This document shows, piece by piece, positions 788 through 18,518 of a stretch of 64,000 nt of DNA (positions are counted from its first letter, which is position 1; each line of letters starts with the position of its first letter). A program made the translations under genes and the position numbers. The notes beneath the pieces were generated by a model, which was given only the letters and a program-made list of their open reading frames with translations, searched no databases and was not told the origin of the DNA. Origin of the DNA: a virus (Duplodnaviria > Caudoviricetes); the IMG/VR virus record IMGVR_UViG_3300032138_000524, positions 32,001-96,000 of that record, one strand, 5' to 3'.

Positions 788-3700
788 ATGATTACATTAT
801 CACCGATTCATCCAAACATTCAAAACACAATGCATCAAAAAATGAGAATGCTAAAAAAGATGTCTGGAGAAGAAGGAGAATATATTATTGGAACTCCACT
901 ATCCACTTCAGAGGGAGATGTAGAAAAAAATTATATGATGGCTAGAGTACCATTTTTACGAATGACATCTTTTACACCTAAAGGAGTGGGAAATAAAACT
1001 GATGGTAAGGATAAAGAAGCAGTAGTTTTAATGGGTGGTCATCTATTGGGAGGCACAGAAGATTTCCCCATGAATAGGTTAAAGGCAGGGTTTAGAGATA
1101 GTCCTGTAGATGTTGGTTCATCAGTTACAGGAAATGCAAAAGATCCATTTATAAATTATCTTGGAATGTATAATCAACCAGATGGAACTATTATTGATGA
1201 TATTCCATTTAGACCAATGGCTGGAGTAAAGGATATTAGTATACAGTTTCAAGGTGGTGGTATGAGATTGGGAGCAACAAGAACAGCAGAAATAAGTTGG
1301 AATTGTTGGACATGGCAAGAGTTAGAAAATTATAGACCACATTTTTTGCAACATGGTAAAACTATTTTATTAGAATGGGGATGGTCTGGTGATGGTATTA
1401 ATTGGAAAGGTGGTTCACCATTTTATGATATATTTGATGGTAATACTTTAAATATTAGTGAGACAAAAATAAATAAATTAAATCAGAAATTAGTAGAACA
1501 TACTTTAGATCAAAAAGGTCAATATGATGCAATGTTAGGTTTAGTTCAAGATTTTAGTTGGACGGTAACTGAGGATGGTGGTTTTGATTGTAGTACTAAA
1601 ATAATTTCACAAGGAATTACCTTATTACAAAAAATACAAAAAAGAAATAAAACTGCTAATATATCTGTATTACCGTTACTTGCTAATGAAGAATATAATT
1701 CAGGTGGATGGTTGTGGGGAATTGATGATACAAAAACTGTATTTAAAGGGCCTACAGATGTAGCTGGGTATTCACCATATATATCTATTAAAGAATATAT
1801 GAATGATTTTCCAATGCAAATAATGAAGTATATGGATTCAATAGCTGCTCCAGATGTCCTCCAGAACCGCGGTTCTCAATACGCTTATATGAAAGAGCAA
1901 CCCGGACCCACTAACAATTCTGAACATCATACAGCAATACATAATATGAAGTTATTTAGAATAGGAAATCATGCAGGCGGACGTTCTTTTGGTAAAGCAT
2001 TACAAGAAAACACAGTAGAGTCGAAGAAAGATGGTAAAAGAGTTATTGGATCAGAAGCTGAAGTGACAAAGTGTTTTGTGTCTTGGGGTTGGTTTGAAGA
2101 TAATGTTTTAAGTAGATTTTTTGGTTCGGTGACTCAAAAAGAAGGAGAAAATGTATTAATAGGTGAATTTAGAAGTATTCAACCAGTTATGGATGATAAT
2201 GGTATATTATATAAAAAAAGTGAAAAAGATAAAGAAGATGGAATATATAATGGAGCTGCAGTAGGAGAACAGGTATATGAATCAACTAAATTTAGAAATA
2301 GTAGGTATTTAGTTACAGCAGATTCAGCCAAGTGGATAATACCAAATCCAAATGATCCATTTATGGTTTCGTCTTGGACATTGTTTCGTAGAGATATAAA
2401 ATTTGGTGCAGTCAATCCAATCGGAACAGGTGCACCGCCTGTAGCAATAGATATGAAAACTTTAAAGGACAATTTACTTTCAAGTGAAATACAAGGAGAT
2501 GACGGAGCAAGAATTAGAAATGTATATTTTAATGCAAATTATTTAAAAGAAAAATTTAAAGATTCTGGAGATATAGTTGAATCTGTAATGAGTGTGTGGC
2601 AAGAATTTTCAAGTACATATGGTGGTGTTTATAAATTTAAAATAGATTTTGCAGATGATGGTAAAAGAGCCATGATTGTAGAAGAAGGATATACGAGTAG
2701 ATCTGTGAAGGATTCCATAACAGATGACCTTTTTAAAGCAAAAGTATTTGAGTTTCCTACATTTAAGTCAGATTCAATAGTTAAATCACAGAACATTAGT
2801 GCAAAAGTTCCCAAAAGAATGCAATTAGCAGCTATGTATGGAGCAGTAACAAAGAATAAAGAAGAGACAAAAACAGAACCAATTGAACCAAGTGAATATG
2901 AAGATTTAATAGCAAAGGCTTGGGGTAGATTTGTAGAGTCATTACCGAAAAATACTGAAGGTAAGAGTCCAGAACAATTAAAACAGATGAGATATGATGA
3001 TATGTTAAATGGAAGAATAGATTTTCCATCAAGAAAGAATCGTTGGTTTGGACATACTAAAGCAAATGTAAATGAAGAACTTACTGTTGGGGGGTATGAT
3101 ACAGAGAAAGGGGCAAATGACAGTATAATTGAAAAGGGTGCAGTAAAACCAACTGCTAGAGATTCTGGAATTCAAATAATGGATAGTATTATGAATGAGT
3201 TAAAACAGTCTCAAGTAGATGAAATGTATAGACAAGTAAAAATAGCAAAGGGATACGAGGATGATAAGGCAGTAACAGATGCAGCCTATGAGGAAGATTT
3301 GAAAAAAGTATTATCTGCAGATGAAAGTCAAAAGAAATTTTTTGCTACAATGTCAGCCCTTGCATCACATACGGCCCACGGACCAGGTATAGCAGGACTT
3401 TTTGATATATTTTATGATGAAACTACGACAAATGGTCTACCAAAATTAAAACCCAGTTTAAAATTTCAAATGCAAATGTTACTCCAAGGTCATAGTGATG
3501 GAGTTCTAAAGGCTACAGATCCACTTATTCCAATAGAGTTTGAGGTAGAGATAGATGGTATTGGTGGAATTCATCCTGGAAATTCATTTCATAGTTCTTA
3601 TTTACCAGTTAGGTATAAAGAAGAAAGTCTTTTTCAGGCAGTAGGAGTTAGTCATAAAGTAGATAGTGGTGGTTGGATAACTACTATAAAAGGTCAAATT

Positions 3701-4393
3701 AGAGCTACAGCATTAAAAGACGAACCAACAAAAGAAAAGCTTTGGAAAGATTATAATGAAATGACGGATGAAGAAAAGGAACAATATTTAGCTGGACAGA
3801 TAGATACAACACAACAAAGTCTACAAAGAAATATGGATGATCTTTTTTCAGGAAAAACACCTATGTTGTTACACAATCCTGAGTTAGCAGAAAAATTAGG
3901 TATTAAATATGATGTTCCACGAGGATTTGAAACTGATGGTGGTTTAGTTAAATATATAGAAAATAATGGTATTCCAGACTATGAGACTATATTAGCTAAA
4001 TGTGATGGAAATCATGAAGCCGCTTTAGCTATTCAAACGTGGATGAAAAATAGTGGACTTATTTCAGGAGGACAGTTGGGAGAATTATCTCATGCTTCCA
4101 TTTGGCCAGCACCTTGGTATGGAACAGATTTTATTTTTGGAACAACTTCACCGTTTCCTGATGGATGGTTAGATAGTTATAATCAAAATATATCTTGGTC
4201 CCAATCACAAGGTGGTGGTGGTGAATTATGGGCAGTCTTAGGGGAGTGGAATAATTGGAGTGATCCAGCTCTTGCAGGTGCAATAACTTGGACTTCTAAT
4301 GAAGCTTCTCGTGCACAGATGTATATAAATAGAGGTTGGGCTCCAGATGATACACTAAACATGAACGCTTATAACGCTTTATCGGGAAATTAA
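788..4393 (+). CDS. Large baseplate hub-like virion protein
   Basis: 1201 aa, follows the LysM gene. The segment 'IDGIGGIHPGNSF...FQAVGVSHKVDSGGWITTIKG' resembles the C-terminal part of hub (gp27/gpD-like) proteins. Confidence 0.55.
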   Translation: MITLSPIHPNIQNTMHQKMRMLKKMSGEEGEYIIGTPLSTSEGDVEKNYMMARVPFLRMTSFTPKGVGNKTDGKDKEAVVLMGGHLLGGTEDFPMNRLKAGFRDSPVDVGSSVTGNAKDPFINYLGMYNQPDGTIIDDIPFRPMAGVKDISIQFQGGGMRLGATRTAEISWNCWTWQELENYRPHFLQHGKTILLEWGWSGDGINWKGGSPFYDIFDGNTLNISETKINKLNQKLVEHTLDQKGQYDAMLGLVQDFSWTVTEDGGFDCSTKIISQGITLLQKIQKRNKTANISVLPLLANEEYNSGGWLWGIDDTKTVFKGPTDVAGYSPYISIKEYMNDFPMQIMKYMDSIAAPDVLQNRGSQYAYMKEQPGPTNNSEHHTAIHNMKLFRIGNHAGGRSFGKALQENTVESKKDGKRVIGSEAEVTKCFVSWGWFEDNVLSRFFGSVTQKEGENVLIGEFRSIQPVMDDNGILYKKSEKDKEDGIYNGAAVGEQVYESTKFRNSRYLVTADSAKWIIPNPNDPFMVSSWTLFRRDIKFGAVNPIGTGAPPVAIDMKTLKDNLLSSEIQGDDGARIRNVYFNANYLKEKFKDSGDIVESVMSVWQEFSSTYGGVYKFKIDFADDGKRAMIVEEGYTSRSVKDSITDDLFKAKVFEFPTFKSDSIVKSQNISAKVPKRMQLAAMYGAVTKNKEETKTEPIEPSEYEDLIAKAWGRFVESLPKNTEGKSPEQLKQMRYDDMLNGRIDFPSRKNRWFGHTKANVNEELTVGGYDTEKGANDSIIEKGAVKPTARDSGIQIMDSIMNELKQSQVDEMYRQVKIAKGYEDDKAVTDAAYEEDLKKVLSADESQKKFFATMSALASHTAHGPGIAGLFDIFYDETTTNGLPKLKPSLKFQMQMLLQGHSDGVLKATDPLIPIEFEVEIDGIGGIHPGNSFHSSYLPVRYKEESLFQAVGVSHKVDSGGWITTIKGQIRATALKDEPTKEKLWKDYNEMTDEEKEQYLAGQIDTTQQSLQRNMDDLFSGKTPMLLHNPELAEKLGIKYDVPRGFETDGGLVKYIENNGIPDYETILAKCDGNHEAALAIQTWMKNSGLISGGQLGELSHASIWPAPWYGTDFIFGTTSPFPDGWLDSYNQNISWSQSQGGGGELWAVLGEWNNWSDPALAGAITWTSNEASRAQMYINRGWAPDDTLNMNAYNALSGN

Positions 4394-4394
4394 G

Positions 4395-4973
4395 ATGGAT
4401 CTTAGTAATGTAGAAAGAATATCACCTGAATTAAGAGCAGGTAGTTTTGAATTTTTGTATGCAGATAATGTTCCAGTAAGAAAAGGTACTCCTTATATGA
4501 TTTTTTATACGAAATCAAAAATGGAAATCTTTCTTACGAGAAGATGGGCCGAAATCTTTGTAAGAAACCCCGAAAAACATTATACTATGTTCGGTCAATA
4601 TGTTGGAATAAATAGATCAAAGGCAATAAGGGAAAGTTACCTTAAACCACATTCCATTGAATTTACTCCGGCAATGGAGAAAAAGGATGGTATATTTAGA
4701 TATTTTGCAAAATATTATTTTGACGAAACTATATTTGAGATAAATAAACAAGATTTTAACGAAGAAACAAATTTTTATCAAAAGATAGGTATATTTTGGC
4801 AATTACAAGGTTCTCAAGAAAGTATAAAAATGAAAAATGAAGAAGCACTGGAACAGGCAGACAATGAATTAAAAGGAATGAGGTATCTTTTAGATCCACT
4901 TGAATTTTCTAAAGAAGAAAAATTGACTAAATTAGAAAAAATACAGCAAAAATTAAGTAATTTGAAGTATTAA
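4395..4973 (+). CDS. Hypothetical protein
   Basis: 192-aa ORF directly after the hub gene; no recognised motif. Confidence 0.6.
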   Translation: MDLSNVERISPELRAGSFEFLYADNVPVRKGTPYMIFYTKSKMEIFLTRRWAEIFVRNPEKHYTMFGQYVGINRSKAIRESYLKPHSIEFTPAMEKKDGIFRYFAKYYFDETIFEINKQDFNEETNFYQKIGIFWQLQGSQESIKMKNEEALEQADNELKGMRYLLDPLEFSKEEKLTKLEKIQQKLSNLKY

Positions 4974-15225: not shown

Positions 15226-15254
15226 AAAAAACTTAAAAAAAGTGAAAAAAAGCC

Positions 15255-15283
15255 TTGACTTTCTCGTTTTTTTGTCGTAAGAT
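15255..15283 (+). promoter_or_regulatory. sigma70-type early promoter 1
   Basis: TTGACT-N17-TAAGAT with A-tract UP element. Confidence 0.8.
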
Positions 15284-15288
15284 CAAGT

Positions 15289-15638: not shown

Positions 15639-15827
15639 ATGAAATTTAAAGAAATAATCAGTAAATTAGAAGAAATAGAAGGTAGTTTAGATGACGCTTT
15701 CTATTCTTTACCAGAGTATAACGCAAATACTGATTCAAGGGATTATATAGATTCCGCACGAAGTGAGTTATATTCTTTAAAAGAAGATATTGAAAAAAAA
15801 CTTAAAAAAAGTGAAAATAAAGCTTGA
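15639..15827 (+). CDS. Small helical hypothetical protein
   Basis: 62-aa ORF, closely spaced after the previous gene. Confidence 0.55.
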   Translation: MKFKEIISKLEEIEGSLDDAFYSLPEYNANTDSRDYIDSARSELYSLKEDIEKKLKKSENKA

Positions 15828-15852
15828 CTTTATCATTTTTTTGTCGTAAGAT
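15824..15852 (+). promoter_or_regulatory. sigma70-type early promoter 2
   Basis: TTGACT-N17-TAAGAT; near-identical ~65-bp repeat of promoter 1. Confidence 0.8.
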
Positions 15853-15879
15853 CAAGTAACAAATAGAGAGAGTAAATAA

Positions 15880-16128
15880 ATGTTAAACATAAAAAACGAA
15901 ATCAGAAAATTAGATAGTCTTTCAGAGTTGAATGAACTATCAGCATTTATCAATGATTGTAAAGTGATGTTAGGTAGAATGTCATTTTCTGTTGGGGATA
16001 AAGTTTATGTAGTCCAAAAGACTAAGAAAACCGAAGGTAGGATTACTAAAGTCAACAAAGTTAAATGTGTTGTTGATATGAGAGGTCGGTTATACAATGT
16101 TCCAATGTCAATGTTGGAGATGAGGTAA
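15880..16128 (+). CDS. Small protein with SH3/KOW-like C-terminal barrel
   Basis: FSVGDKVYV...GRITKVNKVKCVVD...YNVPMSML. Confidence 0.6.
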   Translation: MLNIKNEIRKLDSLSELNELSAFINDCKVMLGRMSFSVGDKVYVVQKTKKTEGRITKVNKVKCVVDMRGRLYNVPMSMLEMR

Positions 16129-16145
16129 AAAAGTCAAAAAAAGCC

Positions 16146-16174
16146 TTGACTTTTACAAATTTTATTCGTAAGAT
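16146..16174 (+). promoter_or_regulatory. sigma70-type early promoter 3 (no CDS follows)
   Basis: TTGACT-N17-TAAGAT. Confidence 0.75.
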
Positions 16175-16179
16175 CAATA

Positions 16180-16434
16180 GTAATGAGAGAGATATGGAAA
16201 TACTAAAAATACTTGTTTAACCCCGTTTGATTAGGTTCATATAAAAGTGTCTAAGGGGAGTTTAAGACACACGAGAGAAAAAAAAATTCGTGGTTTCGTC
16301 CTTTCTACGATAATTTGAAAGGGTGGTGGGTTTGAGAGTGACTACCTATTTGGAACTCTCAAAAATTTTGGGGAATAGATAGTTAGACTATACCGCTGGA
16401 CTCGTTTGAGGACTCTGGATTCCCCAATTTTTTT
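16180..16434 (+). ncRNA. Candidate multi-hairpin ncRNA
   Basis: Serial stems GTGTCT/AGACAC, CACGAG/TTCGTG, CCTTTC/GAAAGG, TTTGAGAGT/ACTCTCAAA and TTGGGGAAT/ATTCCCCAA followed by T7; lies downstream of promoter 3. Confidence 0.5.
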
Positions 16435-16482
16435 AGCTATAAAAGATAGTGTTTGAGAAATTTATGAGATATATATATTAAA

Positions 16483-16547
16483 TGGTGGTGAGGTTTTTTT
16501 ACATATACCCGATAATTTTTAATTATCTAAAACTCACCACTTTTTTT
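16483..16547 (+). ncRNA. Candidate small hairpin RNA
   Basis: GTGGTGAG/CTCACCAC stem with inner GATAATT/AATTATC, followed by T7; preceded by a TTTGAGAAATTT...TATATAT motif. Confidence 0.4.
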
Positions 16548-16624
16548 AAAAAAAGCGAAGAAAAAAGACGTTTTGAGAAATTTGGAGTATATATATAATA
16601 TACGATTAAAATTAAAGAATTAAA

Positions 16625-16788
16625 TTTTGTGGGTCGGAGTTGTAAGATTACCATACGAGAAGAGAAAGACGGTTTTATCCCGTCTTAAATGGTTGACCGA
16701 ATTCCAGTATAAAAAAAGTTGGAGTGGTTTTCTTGTTTCCATTTGACAAAAAGAACAATACCTCTTATGACATGATTTACCTACAAAA
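16625..16788 (+). ncRNA. Y-RNA-like RNA 1
   Basis: TTTTGTGGGT/ACCTACAAAA stem, CGGA/ATGATTT internal loop, GTTGTAAGA/TCTTATGAC stem; adjacent to the Ro60 gene. Confidence 0.65.
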
Positions 16789-16799
16789 AATATTAAAAT

Positions 16800-16869
16800 T
16801 TCGGGTCGGAGTTGATGGATTATCATTATACCAGACAATAAAGACTCCATTAGCAATAATTTATCCGAA
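16800..16869 (+). ncRNA. Y-RNA-like RNA 2
   Basis: TTCGGGT/ATCCGAA stem, CGGA/AATAATTT loop, GTTGATGGA/TCCATTAGC stem; shares GGGTCGGAGTTG with RNA 1. Confidence 0.6.
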
Positions 16870-16910
16870 TAATATTAAAAATTGAATAATTAAAAAAGGA
16901 GACTTATTAA

Positions 16911-18518
16911 ATGAGCTACCAAGCATATACAACATACAACACAAAAGTTACACCACAATCAGAACCAATTCCAGGTTCTAATCAAGTTCCAAATTCCGCA
17001 GGTGGACATTCTTTTGAAGTTGATATATGGACTCGTTTAAATAGATTTCTTATTTTAGGAACTGAAGGTGGAACATATTATATCCGCCAAAAACAATTAA
17101 CAAAAGAGAACGCCAAGTCAATAAAAAAGTGTATTCTGTTAGATGGAAAACGAGTAGTAGATACCGTTATCAATATTTCAGATACAGGTCGTGCAGTTAA
17201 AAACGATCCAGCACTATTTGTTCTTGCAATGTGTGCAGGACTTGGTGATGATTTTACTCGTAAATACGCCTTAACCAATCTACCAAAAATAGCAAGAATT
17301 GGAACTCATTTGTTTCATTTCGCTGGTTATGTAGAACAGTTTAGAGGTTGGGGTCGTGGACTACGAAAAGCTATCGCAAATTGGTATCTGTTAAAAGAAA
17401 CTGATAAGTTAGCATATCAATCTGTAAAGTATCAACAAAGAGATGGTTGGTCACATAAAGACCTATTGAGATTATCTCATCCATCTACACAAGATGCCAA
17501 TAAAGATTTACTATTTGAGTGGGTTACAAAAGGATATAATTCTTCAAAGGAAGATGAATATAAGGATTCACTCAGTATAATTTGGGCCTTCGAGAAGGTC
17601 AAGTCAGTCCAGACAGATGTGGAAGCTGCTAAATTAGTGGAAGAATATAAACTCCCACTTGAGGCAGTTCCTTCTAACCTAAAGACACCTAAAGTTCTGG
17701 AAACAGCATTACCACATTTGGGATTGACAGCTATTATCAGAAACTTAGGTAACTATACCAAACACGGTATTCTCACTCCCCAAAGTGACGCCCTTAAACT
17801 CGTTACTTCGAGAATAACCGATAAGGGGAAATTGCAGAAGGCCCGTATTCATCCATTAAGTGTATTACAGGCAATGCAAACCTATAAGAGTGGTAAAGGA
17901 CTCAAAGGTTCTGGTGAGTGGGAAGTAAACCCACAAATAGTAGATGCTCTTGATGACGCATTCTACTTGTCTTTCGATAATATAATTCCAACTGGTAAAC
18001 GAGTGATGTTATCACTTGATGTATCTTCATCCATGACTTGGGAAGGTTGTGGTGGAATGCCATCAGTAACACCACGAGTTGGTTCAGCTGCAATGGCAAT
18101 GGTTACAATGAGAACTGAAAGTGATTATCTTATAACAGGTTTTACAACTGGATTAGAGATTCTTGATCTTTCTCCGAAAATGAGATTGGATGATGTATGT
18201 GATAGATTGGAAAATCTTGATTTTGGTGGAACTGATTGTTCATTACCAATGTTATACGCACTTGAGAATGACCTCCAGTTTGACGCCTTCGTAGTTTATA
18301 CAGATAGTGAAACTTGGGCAGGTGAAATGCATCCAGTTGAAGCGTTAAAGATGTATAGAAAGAAAACAGGAATTCCAGCAAAACTAATTGTAGTGGGAAT
18401 GGAAGCAAATGATTTTACAATAGCAGATCCAGATGACTCTGGTATGTTAGATATAGTAGGTTTTGATACGACAGCACCTTCCGTGATGTCCGATTTTATC
18501 AGAGAAGATTTACAGTAA
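16911..18518 (+). CDS. rsr: Ro60/TROVE-domain RNA-binding protein (Rsr ortholog)
   Basis: RLNRFLILGTEGGTYY, RGWGRGLRKA, KYQQRDGWSHKDLLRLSHP; vWA MIDAS DVSSSM, GGTDCSLPM, YTDSETW, DIVGFD. Confidence 0.93.
   Translation: MSYQAYTTYNTKVTPQSEPIPGSNQVPNSAGGHSFEVDIWTRLNRFLILGTEGGTYYIRQKQLTKENAKSIKKCILLDGKRVVDTVINISDTGRAVKNDPALFVLAMCAGLGDDFTRKYALTNLPKIARIGTHLFHFAGYVEQFRGWGRGLRKAIANWYLLKETDKLAYQSVKYQQRDGWSHKDLLRLSHPSTQDANKDLLFEWVTKGYNSSKEDEYKDSLSIIWAFEKVKSVQTDVEAAKLVEEYKLPLEAVPSNLKTPKVLETALPHLGLTAIIRNLGNYTKHGILTPQSDALKLVTSRITDKGKLQKARIHPLSVLQAMQTYKSGKGLKGSGEWEVNPQIVDALDDAFYLSFDNIIPTGKRVMLSLDVSSSMTWEGCGGMPSVTPRVGSAAMAMVTMRTESDYLITGFTTGLEILDLSPKMRLDDVCDRLENLDFGGTDCSLPMLYALENDLQFDAFVVYTDSETWAGEMHPVEALKMYRKKTGIPAKLIVVGMEANDFTIADPDDSGMLDIVGFDTTAPSVMSDFIREDLQ

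What the first reader, a model, noticed from the sequence alone, without database searches (positions are those of the whole stretch)
16129..16620. Additional promoter-to-terminator ncRNA units packed upstream of the Y-like RNAs
This is the only long non-coding stretch in an otherwise densely coding window. Promoter 3 (16146-16174) is followed by no credible ORF. Instead come ~250 nt of consecutive hairpins (16247-70, 16270-92, 16300-22, a perfect 9-bp stem at 16331-63) and a branched domain closed by TTGGGGAAT/ATTCCCCAA (16368-16427) plus T7. That last domain has a 7-bp GGGGAAT/ATTCCCC-A stem reminiscent of a tRNA acceptor stem. A second unit follows: TTTGAGAAATTT..TATATAT motif, hairpin GTGGTGAG/CTCACCAC (16485-16540), T7. 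Inference: a cluster of three or four phage sRNAs, perhaps Ro60 substrates, decoys or RNA antitoxin/anti-defence mimics.
Basis: partly seen in the sequence, partly recalled or inferred. Interest (0 to 1): 0.7.

Follow-up and report, generated by a model that had tools for sequence, protein, structure and literature searches.

The report
Modular phage small-RNA array, not Ro60-bound
The gene-free stretch of this uncultured marine phage holds real folded RNAs: two tandem pseudoknot hairpins with a branched terminator, then the leftover promoter and terminator of a lost "manA" RNA gene. These pieces recur in related phages that have no Ro60 gene, so they are not Ro60 accessories.

Summary
**Observation:** mostly confirmed.

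**Supported by relatives:**
- The core of unit 1 (16288-16434) is well supported.
  - Hairpins A and B keep their loops (CUAC..AUUUG) while their stems covary.
  - The GUGG upstream of each hairpin pairs with the loop CUAC, and the adjoining pairs covary. Each hairpin is therefore probably an H-type pseudoknot.
  - The three-way domain covaries in all three helices and sits where relatives have a plain terminator.
- Unit 2 (16484-16547) also covaries.

**Not supported:** the leader hairpins (16247-92). They fold no better than shuffles and occur only in near-identical relatives.

**Interpretation:** partly right.
- These are + strand RNA elements with no Rfam match in the window.
- Units 1 and 2 occur in relatives without Ro60 or Y RNAs. 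Unit 1 is absent from 39 distant Ro60-carrying viral loci.
- Unit 2 is the conserved 3' hairpin/terminator of the clade's free-standing manA RNA gene. In this window the body is missing, with only 8 nt between promoter and hairpin.

**Context:** the locus is a modular RNA island. In relatives it also carries manA, an 88-nt element, tRNA-like RNAs and once a tRNA. This scan had already noted such manA-containing RNA islands on other DNA.

**Function:** unknown. My best guess is a structured protein- or ligand-binding sRNA.

The parts
16127..16177 (+). Early promoter-like site with an A-rich upstream element. TTGACT lies at 16146-51 and TAAGAT at 16169-74.
   Evidence: Consensus scan. It is the third of three 51-nt repeat copies in 15.2-16.2 kb and one of 5 strict copies in the genome. 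Promoter function is inferred from the consensus only.
16180..16287 (+). Variable 5' leader.
   Evidence: Fold z = +0.6. Found only in near-identical relatives L011, L012 and L014. Other relatives have an ORF end, a promoter or a tRNA-like RNA here instead. The mini-ORF keeps its frame across a 3-nt indel in L011/L012/L014, which is weak evidence.
16288..16325 (+). Module A. The hairpin pairs 16297-16305 with 16317-16325 and has loop CUACGAUAAUUUG. The upstream strand UCGUGG (16288-93) pairs with loop CUACGA (16305-10), giving a candidate H-type pseudoknot.
   Evidence: Five stem variants all stay paired. The pseudoknot pair 16288/16310 is U-A in 8, C-G in 4 and A-U in 1 of 13 sequences. The other five pseudoknot pairs are invariant.
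16325..16363 (+). Module B. The hairpin pairs 16331-16339 with 16355-16363 and has loop (GA)CUACCUAUUUG(GA). The upstream strand GGUGG (16325-29) pairs with loop CUACC (16342-46).
   Evidence: z = -3.2. At least three stem variants stay paired. The fifth pseudoknot pair is G-C here. In relatives it is A-U (L157 type) or U-A (L153), with one A.A exception.
16368..16434 (+). Three-way-junction terminator. The outer stem pairs 16368-76 with 16419-27. Arm 1 is 16379-91, the variable arm 2 is 16393-16418, and the U7 tract is 16428-34. An A-tract lies 5' of it.
   Evidence: z = -2.3. Among 13 variants the outer stem changes from GGGGAAU/AUUCCCC to GGGGAUU/AAUCCCC, arm 1 from AUAG/CUAU to GAUG/CAUC or AGUU/AACU, and the base of arm 2 from CCG/UGG to CUG/CAG. 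Arm 2 ranges from about 13 to 70 nt. In L157, L159 and L174 a plain GC hairpin with a U-run stands after modules A-B where the window has this domain.
16450..16481 (+). P2a, the first copy of the promoter-like repeat GTTTGAGAAATTT-N5-ATATATAT. It can be read as an extended -10 (TGaGATATA).
   Evidence: Only two copies exist in the genome, at 16452 and 16572. The same motif stands upstream of the cargo in several manA-bearing relatives. In L098, L081 and L082 the matched motif instead overlaps a small terminator-like hairpin. Other TGATATATA sites occur in the genome. Promoter function is inferred.
16484..16547 (+). Unit 2, a terminal hairpin and terminator. The outer stem pairs 16485-92 with 16533-40. 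Inside are the conserved 5' internal loop UUACAUAUACC and an inner hairpin, followed by a U7 tract at 16541-47.
   Evidence: z = -3.3. About 21 distinct variants show covarying outer and inner stems, with G.U pairs on the + strand only. In relatives it follows a manA RNA or an 88-nt element. In the window it lies 8 nt after P2a.
16548..16601 (+). Conserved A-rich spacer and P2b, the second copy of the repeat (TTGAGA-17-TAATAT). It leads into the first Y-like RNA.
   Evidence: The spacer resembles the upstream element of the early promoters (family D3). It belongs to the Y RNA/Ro60 cassette, which is absent from the L064-type relatives.

Best explanation
The stretch is part of a modular island of phage RNA genes, read on the + strand. 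The phage belongs to an abundant, uncultured marine clade.

**Unit 1 core (about 16288-16434)**
- It is a small structured RNA made of two tandem modules.
- In each module, a GUGG-containing strand pairs with the CUAC start of the loop of the hairpin that follows. This would form an H-type pseudoknot and leave a conserved AUUU segment unpaired.
- The RNA ends in a conserved three-way-junction intrinsic terminator.

**Unit 2**
- It is the constant 3' hairpin/terminator of a free-standing manA-RNA gene.
- In this genome the gene body is absent, so the P2 promoter is followed almost at once by its terminator.

**Relation to Ro60**
- Neither unit depends on Ro60.
- The second P2 copy, the Y RNAs and the Ro60 gene form a cassette that some relatives lack.

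**Most likely mode of action of the A-B RNA (inferred, not shown)**
- It acts in trans as a folded decoy or scaffold that binds a protein, or possibly a small ligand, through the repeated pseudoknot modules.
- It probably does not act through antisense seeds.
For: **Shown**
- Stems covary: for unit 1; for unit 2; for the three-way domain.
- Pseudoknot pairs covary, with 3 Watson-Crick types at one position and 4 at another.
- G.U pairs and a lower folding energy favour the + strand.
- Rfam finds nothing in the stretch.
- Units 1 and 2 are present in relatives without Ro60 or Y RNAs.
- Model R1 is absent from 39 distant Ro60 loci.
- manA RNA scores 58.8-68.8 bits (gathering score 55.2) between the P2 site and unit 2 in relatives. 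The P2-to-hairpin gap is 454-640 nt there and 8 nt here.
- Modules occur in other combinations: A-B alone, one to three hairpins, A-B with a tRNA-like domain and the three-way domain, and the tRNA-like domain with the three-way domain but no A-B.
- In L157 and L159, A-B with a terminator ends an operon, with no + strand ORF over 70 aa in the next 2.5 kb. In L174 a promoter-like site abuts it.
- RNA-library contigs cover the stretch. One high-depth contig over unit 2 carries the 88-nt element in front of it.

**Inferred**
- Protein or ligand binding. The basis is invariant loop and linker letters on variable stems, a copy number of 1-3, and loops tied up in pseudoknots.
Against: - No transcript ends are known. 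The RNA evidence is unstranded contigs of low depth over unit 1.
- The pseudoknot has a steric problem as drawn. The linker is 1-5 nt against a stem of 8-11 bp, so the outer stem pairs would have to open, or the two foldings may alternate.
- One module (L153-2) has an A.A mismatch and one (L084) a G.A mismatch in the pseudoknot helix.
- The outer stem of the three-way domain is nearly invariant within close relatives.
- No binding partner, ligand or host is known.
- Promoters are consensus matches only.
- The 'deleted body' reading of unit 2 assumes that the manA-bearing form is ancestral. An empty slot that was later filled fits equally well.
Confidence: 0.6

Rival explanations
1. Ro60 partners. 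Units 1 and 2 would be extra Y-like RNAs, substrates or decoys that work with the phage Ro60.
For: They lie directly upstream of two Y-like RNAs and a full Ro60 gene. Bacterial Ro60 loci often hold several Y RNAs, some of them tRNA-like (PMC4201824).
Against: The same units occur in relatives that lack Ro60 and Y RNAs. Model R1 finds nothing in 39 distant Ro60-bearing viral loci. I saw no GNCGAA-type Ro60-binding helix when reading the sequence, and there is no YrlA or Y RNA hit at E<=10.
Confidence: 0.08
2. Cis-acting control element. The tandem pseudoknots would be riboswitch aptamers, or nut/put-like antitermination sites, that decide whether RNA polymerase reads through the terminator that follows.
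For: The layout is 'structured element, then intrinsic terminator' on the same strand as the downstream genes. Small H-type pseudoknots are a common riboswitch fold. In L154 an ORF starts about 20 nt after the terminator, with no promoter in view.
Against: In L157, L159 and L174 the A-B pair and its terminator end the transcription unit, with no sizeable + strand gene downstream. The copy number varies from 1 to 3. I saw no alternative pairing with the terminator stem. Rfam riboswitch models find nothing.
Confidence: 0.14
3. Base-pairing sRNA. The conserved loops CUAC..AUUUG would be seeds that pair with host or phage mRNAs.
For: The layout is typical of an sRNA: a 5' functional domain followed by a Rho-independent terminator, sometimes derived from a 3' UTR. 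The loop sequences are conserved.
Against: Loop complements are not enriched in the window: 8 matches against 5.4 expected. Half of each loop is engaged in the covarying pseudoknot. The host is unknown, so host targets could not be tested.
Confidence: 0.12
4. Only terminators, insulators and 3' stabilisers. The structures would stop transcription between cassettes and protect 3' ends, with no function in trans.
For: Both units end in a stem with a U7 tract. The three-way domain can be exchanged for a plain terminator. Unit 2 is the 3' end of the manA gene.
Against: This does not explain invariant loop letters, pseudoknot covariation, conserved junction letters or conserved inner hairpins across many variants. 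A plain hairpin would be enough to terminate.
Confidence: 0.12
5. DNA-level element, such as a replication origin, a packaging site or a recombination site.
For: It is the only long gene-free, AT-rich, repeat-bearing stretch in the region.
Against: Cumulative GC skew rises steadily through the window, with no turn near 16 kb. Compensatory changes use G.U pairs, which work only in + strand RNA. There are no iterons beyond the promoter repeats.
Confidence: 0.03

Closest known systems
manA RNA motif (Rfam RF01745; Weinberg et al. 2010, PMC2864571; cage assemblies in preprint 10.64898/2026.07.01.735769)
   Same: In relatives, the slot between the P2 site and the unit-2 hairpin holds a manA RNA above Rfam's gathering score. 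Unit 2 is that gene's 3' end.
   Different: The window itself has no manA RNA; only the flanks remain. Unit 2 is not part of the Rfam model. Here manA looks like a free-standing gene with its own terminator, not a 5' leader.
Phage T4 stable RNAs C and D in the tRNA cluster (NC_000866, rnaC and rnaD)
   Same: Both are phage-encoded small stable RNAs of unknown function, packed head to tail with tRNA or tRNA-like genes. T4 rnaC has a canonical T-arm, as do the tRNA-like RNAs beside A-B in relatives.
   Different: There is no homology: model R1 gives no hit on rnaC or rnaD. The window's own three-way domain lacks a T-loop, and no tRNA lies in the 131.8-kb record.
Bacterial and phage Y RNAs, YrlA/YrlB (Chen et al. 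2014, PMC4201824)
   Same: They lie next to a Ro60 gene. A modular, tRNA-like theme runs through the island.
   Different: Units 1 and 2 lack the Ro60-binding helix, are present without Ro60 and are absent from other Ro60 loci.
Tandem pseudoknots followed by a tRNA-like 3' domain in tobamovirus 3' UTRs, and tmRNA (comparison from my own knowledge)
   Same: The architecture is similar: a chain of H-type pseudoknots followed by a tRNA-shaped terminal domain.
   Different: This is analogy only. There is no CCA end or T-loop in the window. ARAGORN finds no tmRNA in the window or in any relative searched. The biology is different, since those are eukaryotic RNA viruses.

Membership tests
tRNA or tRNA-like domain (for the three-way domain 16368-16427) | Recognised by tRNA or tmRNA gene finders and by the Rfam tRNA model | tested here: not met
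   ARAGORN finds 0 genes in the window and in the genome. Rfam gives no tRNA hit at E<=10 on 15800-17000.
tRNA or tRNA-like domain (for the three-way domain 16368-16427) | T-arm with a GUUCRANYC-type loop, and GG in the D-loop | tested here: not met
   Reading the sequence shows neither arm loop has the motif. Relatives carry a separate domain with GGUUCGAAUCC next to the three-way domain, so the two are different modules.
tRNA or tRNA-like domain (for the three-way domain 16368-16427) | A 7-bp acceptor stem, a 2-nt linker, a 4-5-bp arm, and a last arm that abuts the 3' strand | tested here: met
   The topology is present and conserved in 13 variants. This is a resemblance in shape only.
Y RNA / YrlA | Ro60-binding helix (GNCGAA-type or GGUCCGA-type) formed by the 5' and 3' ends | tested here: not met
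   None was seen in 16129-16560 on reading the sequence. The Rfam hit to a Y-related family is at 16797-16870 only.
Y RNA / YrlA | Co-occurrence with a Ro60 gene | tested here: not met
   Present without Ro60 in L064-L070, L061, L067, L071 and L082. Absent from 39 distant Ro60 loci.
manA RNA (RF01745) | Score at or above Rfam's gathering score | tested here: not met
   No hit in the window. The same slot in relatives is hit at 58.8-68.8 bits.
Intrinsic (Rho-independent) terminator | A GC-containing stem followed directly by a U-tract on the transcribed strand | tested here: met
   A 9-bp stem with U7 ends at 16434, and an 8-9-bp stem with U7 ends at 16547. The simple scanner misses both because their 'loops' are long. 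Termination activity was not tested.
H-type pseudoknot (modules A and B) | Loop letters pair with a strand outside the hairpin, supported by covariation | tested here: met
   Pair 16288/16310 is U-A in 8, C-G in 4 and A-U in 1 sequence. Helix B is 100% paired. Across modules there are four Watson-Crick types at the fifth pair, with one mismatch.
H-type pseudoknot (modules A and B) | Loop lengths that can span the stems | tested here: inconclusive
   The linker is 1-5 nt against stems of 8-11 bp. This works only if the outer stem pairs open. It needs probing or 3D modelling.

The most novel reading that the evidence does not exclude
The GUGG-hairpin-CUAC..AUUUG pseudoknot module would be a new, phage-specific class of structured RNA. 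It occurs in 1-3 tandem copies and binds a defined host or phage factor, which could be a protein or a small molecule. The whole locus would be a cassette system for RNA genes, with constant promoter and terminator flanks and swappable cargo: manA cages, tRNA-like RNAs, Y RNAs with Ro60, or nothing. An abundant ocean phage clade would use it to reprogramme host RNA metabolism.
Probability: 0.3. Interest if true: 0.75.

Novelty: new variant of a known kind. Interest (0 to 1): 0.5.

Why it matters
- Phage-encoded structured RNAs are poorly catalogued. Here, two or three RNA families that Rfam does not recognise sit in a very common marine phage clade. That clade gave at least 599 hits to its gp32-like protein in IMG/VR.
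- These families lie next to manA RNA and to Y RNA/Ro60, both of which are themselves unexplained.
- The modules are exchanged as cassettes and are independent of Ro60. This corrects an attractive but wrong functional link.
- The work gives concrete, testable RNA targets: the pseudoknot pairs and the branched terminator.
- It supports the view that manA is a free-standing RNA gene with a defined 3' end.

Tried and rejected
- **Rfam.** The gathering-score scan of the whole window gave nothing. The E<=10 scan of 15800-17000 gave only a chance-level nqrA-II match over the stretch.
- **tRNA/tmRNA search.** ARAGORN on the window, the genome and about 35 relatives found no tRNA or tmRNA, apart from one tRNA-Pro in L176.
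- **Cultured phages.** A distant blastn of 15800-17000 hit only a small ORF of Pelagibacter phage HTVC008M, not the RNAs.
- **Antisense targets.** Complements of loop B are at chance level in the window. The loop motif occurs once.
- **Kissing interaction.** I considered a kiss between loop A and the inner hairpin of unit 2. I dropped it because the changes in L007, L009 and L018 do not covary.
- **Host clue.**
  - Scans of 185,579 species genomes for the three-way domain and for module A found only a 928-nt phage-like contig binned with a Verrucomicrobia MAG, plus a chance hit in a GC-rich MAG.
  - One further scan was wasted on a wrong gap length.
- **T4 rnaC/rnaD.** No homology.
- **RNA runs.** Only contigs were available, so there are no ends, strand or levels. 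Parts without cover mean nothing.
- **Coding.** The 38-aa ORF at 16482-16598 is not conserved.
- **Alignment problems.**
  - MAFFT misaligned some variants of hairpin B and the three-way domain. Column counts for those helices understate the pairing, so I checked each variant by folding it alone.
  - My first shuffle script timed out.

Full report
**Setting**

The window is part of a 131,840-base IMG/VR virus record with 32% G+C and no tRNA genes. Nearly all genes around the finding lie on the + strand. A 535-aa Ro60 protein (TROVE plus vWA_Ro60 domains) is encoded at 16911-18518. It is followed by a cold-shock protein and a gp32-like single-strand DNA-binding protein.

The gp32-like protein has at least 599 relatives in IMG/VR, so this is a common marine phage group. 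The closest cultured relatives of gp32 are only 38-50% identical: Microcystis phage Mel-JY01 and the Flavobacterium 'immuto' phages. The host is unknown.

**Checking the observation**

All the named elements are present.

Taken one at a time, several fold better than dinucleotide shuffles:

| Element | z-score |
|---|---|
| Hairpin A | -2.0 |
| Hairpin B | -3.2 |
| Three-way domain | -2.3 |
| Unit 2 | -3.3 |

The whole 257-nt stretch does not (z = -0.48). The leader 16180-16288 does not either (z = +0.6). Thermodynamics alone would therefore have left the finding open.

Rfam finds nothing at gathering score in the whole window. At E<=10 the only hit of note is a nematode Y-RNA-like family at 16797-16870, outside this finding.

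**Comparative evidence for unit 1**

Ro60-anchored and pattern-anchored searches gave 13 distinct versions of 16281-16441.

- Conservation starts at AAUUCGUGG, about 16285.
- Upstream of that point, relatives carry a different leader, an ORF stop codon, a promoter-like site or a tRNA-like RNA.
- On the alignment, 94.9% of cells are paired. Eight pairs show changes on both sides, and no shuffle of 500 reaches the observed covariation. Sliding the partners drops pairing to 30-55%.
- Folding each variant alone shows five different stems for hairpin A and at least three for hairpin B, all around the same loops.
- Many pairs are G.U, and the + strand folds 11 kcal/mol better than the minus strand. 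The element is therefore an RNA read from the + strand, not a DNA cruciform.

**Pseudoknots**

Every CUAC..AUUUG hairpin found in any locus (37 distinct) is preceded by GUGG. GUGG is complementary to CUAC, and the adjoining positions covary.

- In A-type modules, the letter two positions before GUGG and the sixth loop letter are U-A, C-G or A-U. On alignment A3 the counts are 8, 4 and 1, with all 13 paired.
- The letter directly before GUGG and the fifth loop letter are C-G in the A type, G-C in the B type, A-U in the L157 type and U-A in L153. There is one A.A exception.
- Counting distinct states only, 7 of 8 are pairs. By my own binomial estimate, with a 0.375 chance of a pair per state, this gives about 0.006. 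The estimate ignores phylogeny.

I therefore read each module as an H-type pseudoknot of 5-7 bp plus the hairpin stem, leaving AUUU unpaired. There is a caveat. The linker between GUGG and the stem is 1-5 nt while the stem is 8-11 bp. Either the outer stem pairs open, or the two foldings alternate.

**The three-way domain**

Thirteen variants are known.

- The outer stem changes from GGGGAAU/AUUCCCC to GGGGAUU/AAUCCCC.
- Arm 1 changes from AUAG/CUAU to GAUG/CAUC or AGUU/AACU.
- The base of arm 2 changes from CCG/UGG to CUG/CAG.
- Arm 2 varies from about 13 to 70 nt.

The domain is flanked by an A-tract and a U7 tract. In L157, L159 and L174 a plain GC hairpin with a U-run stands after A-B where the window has it. 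It is therefore a terminator, but a conserved, branched one.

It has tRNA-like topology: a 7-bp stem, a 2-nt linker, a 4-5-bp arm, and a last arm stacked on the 3' strand. It has no T-loop and is not called by ARAGORN or Rfam. Relatives have a separate domain with a canonical T-arm right beside it, so the two are not the same thing.

**Unit 2**

The hairpin at 16484-16541 with its U7 tract is conserved in about 21 distinct versions, in relatives whose gp32 is as little as about 82% identical.

- The outer and inner stems covary.
- The internal loop UUACAUAUACC is conserved.
- G.U pairs occur on the + strand only.

What differs between relatives is the cargo between the P2 promoter-like site and the hairpin.

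- It is 8 nt in the window and the L064 type.
- It is 87-89 nt, holding a folded 88-nt element, in L002, L009 and L013.
- It is 454-640 nt in most others.
- That long cargo contains a manA RNA above Rfam's gathering score in L061, L067 and L071, and in 12 of 20 further loci scanned.
- In nine of those twelve, the manA match ends about 20-110 nt before the unit-2 hairpin.

Unit 2 is therefore the 3' end of the clade's free-standing manA gene, and the window carries only the gene's flanks.

An RNA-library contig of high depth over unit 2 continues upstream into the 88-nt element, not into the window's sequence (loose end at 16484). This fits an abundant RNA of a relative that ends in unit 2.

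**No dependence on Ro60**

- In L064-L070, units 1 and 2 are followed by a 73-aa ORF, the cold-shock gene and gp32. Nothing there corresponds to 16556-18487.
- L061, L067, L071 and L082 also lack Ro60.
- Model R1 finds no unit 1 in 39 viral loci whose Ro60 is 37-54% identical.
- The second P2 copy, the Y-like RNAs and Ro60 thus form a cassette that is present in only part of the clade.

**Module shuffling**

Model and pattern searches show these combinations:
- A-B alone (L144, L165).
- One hairpin (L114, L119) or three (L153).
- A-B with a tRNA-like domain and the three-way domain (L082, L084, L183).
- The tRNA-like domain and three-way domain without A-B (L085-L087).
- A-B with a plain terminator (L157, L159, L174).

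Further context:
- In L157 and L159 the element ends an operon. Only short + strand ORFs follow it, the longest 70 aa within 2.5 kb. In L174 a promoter-like site lies about 10 nt upstream. This argues against a purely cis-regulatory role.
- L176 has a true tRNA-Pro about 360 nt downstream.
- Species-representative bacterial genomes do not contain the modules, apart from a 928-nt phage-like contig in a MAG.

**Transcription**

- Promoters are consensus matches only.
- Four RNA libraries from four studies hold contigs over the stretch.
- In X16 and X19, unit 1 has about 2-3 times the depth of the leader and the ORFs upstream.
- These are unstranded contigs, possibly from relatives or from DNA, so they are only a weak hint.

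**Function**

Not shown. The relevant features are these:
- invariant loop and linker letters on freely changing stems;
- a copy number of 1-3;
- loops tied up in pseudoknots;
- a position at transcript 3' ends or behind a promoter of their own.

These fit a trans-acting folded RNA that binds a protein or a small ligand better than they fit an antisense sRNA. Loop complements are at chance level in the window. They also fit better than a read-through switch, given the L157-type context. I hold this loosely. The rivals are listed with their odds.

**Comparison with what is known**

- The closest catalogued family in the locus is manA, which is present only in relatives.
- The closest analogue in organisation is the T4 tRNA cluster with stable RNAs C and D. 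T4 rnaC has a T-arm like the relatives' tRNA-like RNAs. There is no homology to unit 1.
- Earlier notes of this scan describe modular, manA-containing RNA islands and free-standing manA genes in other marine phages. They also describe a three-way junction at the end of an early operon that shares 7 of 39 sampled short words with unit 1. These agree with my reading, and I did not rely on them.

**Verdict**

These are real RNA families that Rfam does not recognise, in an ordinary kind of locus, a phage RNA-gene cluster. The Ro60 link is rejected, and unit 2 is explained as the stub of a manA gene. Interest is moderate.

Noticed in passing
L067:743-927; L082:808-1010; L098:3323-3524 and others: In related phages a manA RNA (RF01745, 58.8-68.8 bits) occupies the slot that is empty in the window. 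It has its own promoter-like site and the unit-2 terminator, so it looks like a free-standing gene.
   Followed up: yes
L009:3487-3573; L013:831-915; also L098 and L106: An 88-nt element closed by UUGGAAAGU/ACUUUCCAA lies between the P2 site (or manA) and unit 2. It has no Rfam match, and its fold and function are unknown.
   Followed up: partly
L082:395-455; L085:1966-2030; L165 about 4800-4950; L013:560-640; L067:200-300: tRNA-like RNAs with a canonical T-arm (GGUUCGAAUCC or GAGUUCGAGUCUC) and a 6-7-bp acceptor-like stem lie next to the A-B modules. They are not called by ARAGORN. They recall T4 rnaC.
   Followed up: partly
window 16637-16819: In RNA library X19, contig depth is 1,260-4,100 here, against about 136 over Ro60 and about 5 upstream. 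This interval covers Y-like RNA 1 and the invariant 90-nt block between the two Y-like RNAs (16706-16795), which may be part of an abundant RNA.
   Followed up: no
window 16194-16220: A mini-ORF, MEILKILV*, follows a GAGAGAG ribosome-binding-like site just after the early promoter. L011, L012 and L014 have MLLKIVV* in frame after a 3-nt indel. It may be a leader peptide or a remnant.
   Followed up: partly
window 15236-15286, 15805-15855, 16127-16177; genome 101137 and 126546: There is a family of early promoter-like sites with an A-rich upstream element: AAAAAAGTGAAAAAAAGCCTTGACTTT..CGTAAGATCAA.
   Followed up: partly
L070:4572-5867: Relatives carry an ATP-dependent DNA ligase and a 131-aa ORF directly upstream of unit 1, where the window has small early ORFs. 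The region between the GH6-like gene and gp32 is hypervariable.
   Followed up: partly
L154 (PNEW01000217.1, 928 nt): A contig binned with a Verrucomicrobia MAG carries unit 1 and this phage's early promoter. It is probably a phage fragment and not a reliable clue to the host.
   Followed up: partly
L176:7562-7637 (-): A true tRNA-Pro(UGG) lies about 360 nt downstream of the A-B modules on the same strand in one relative.
   Followed up: no
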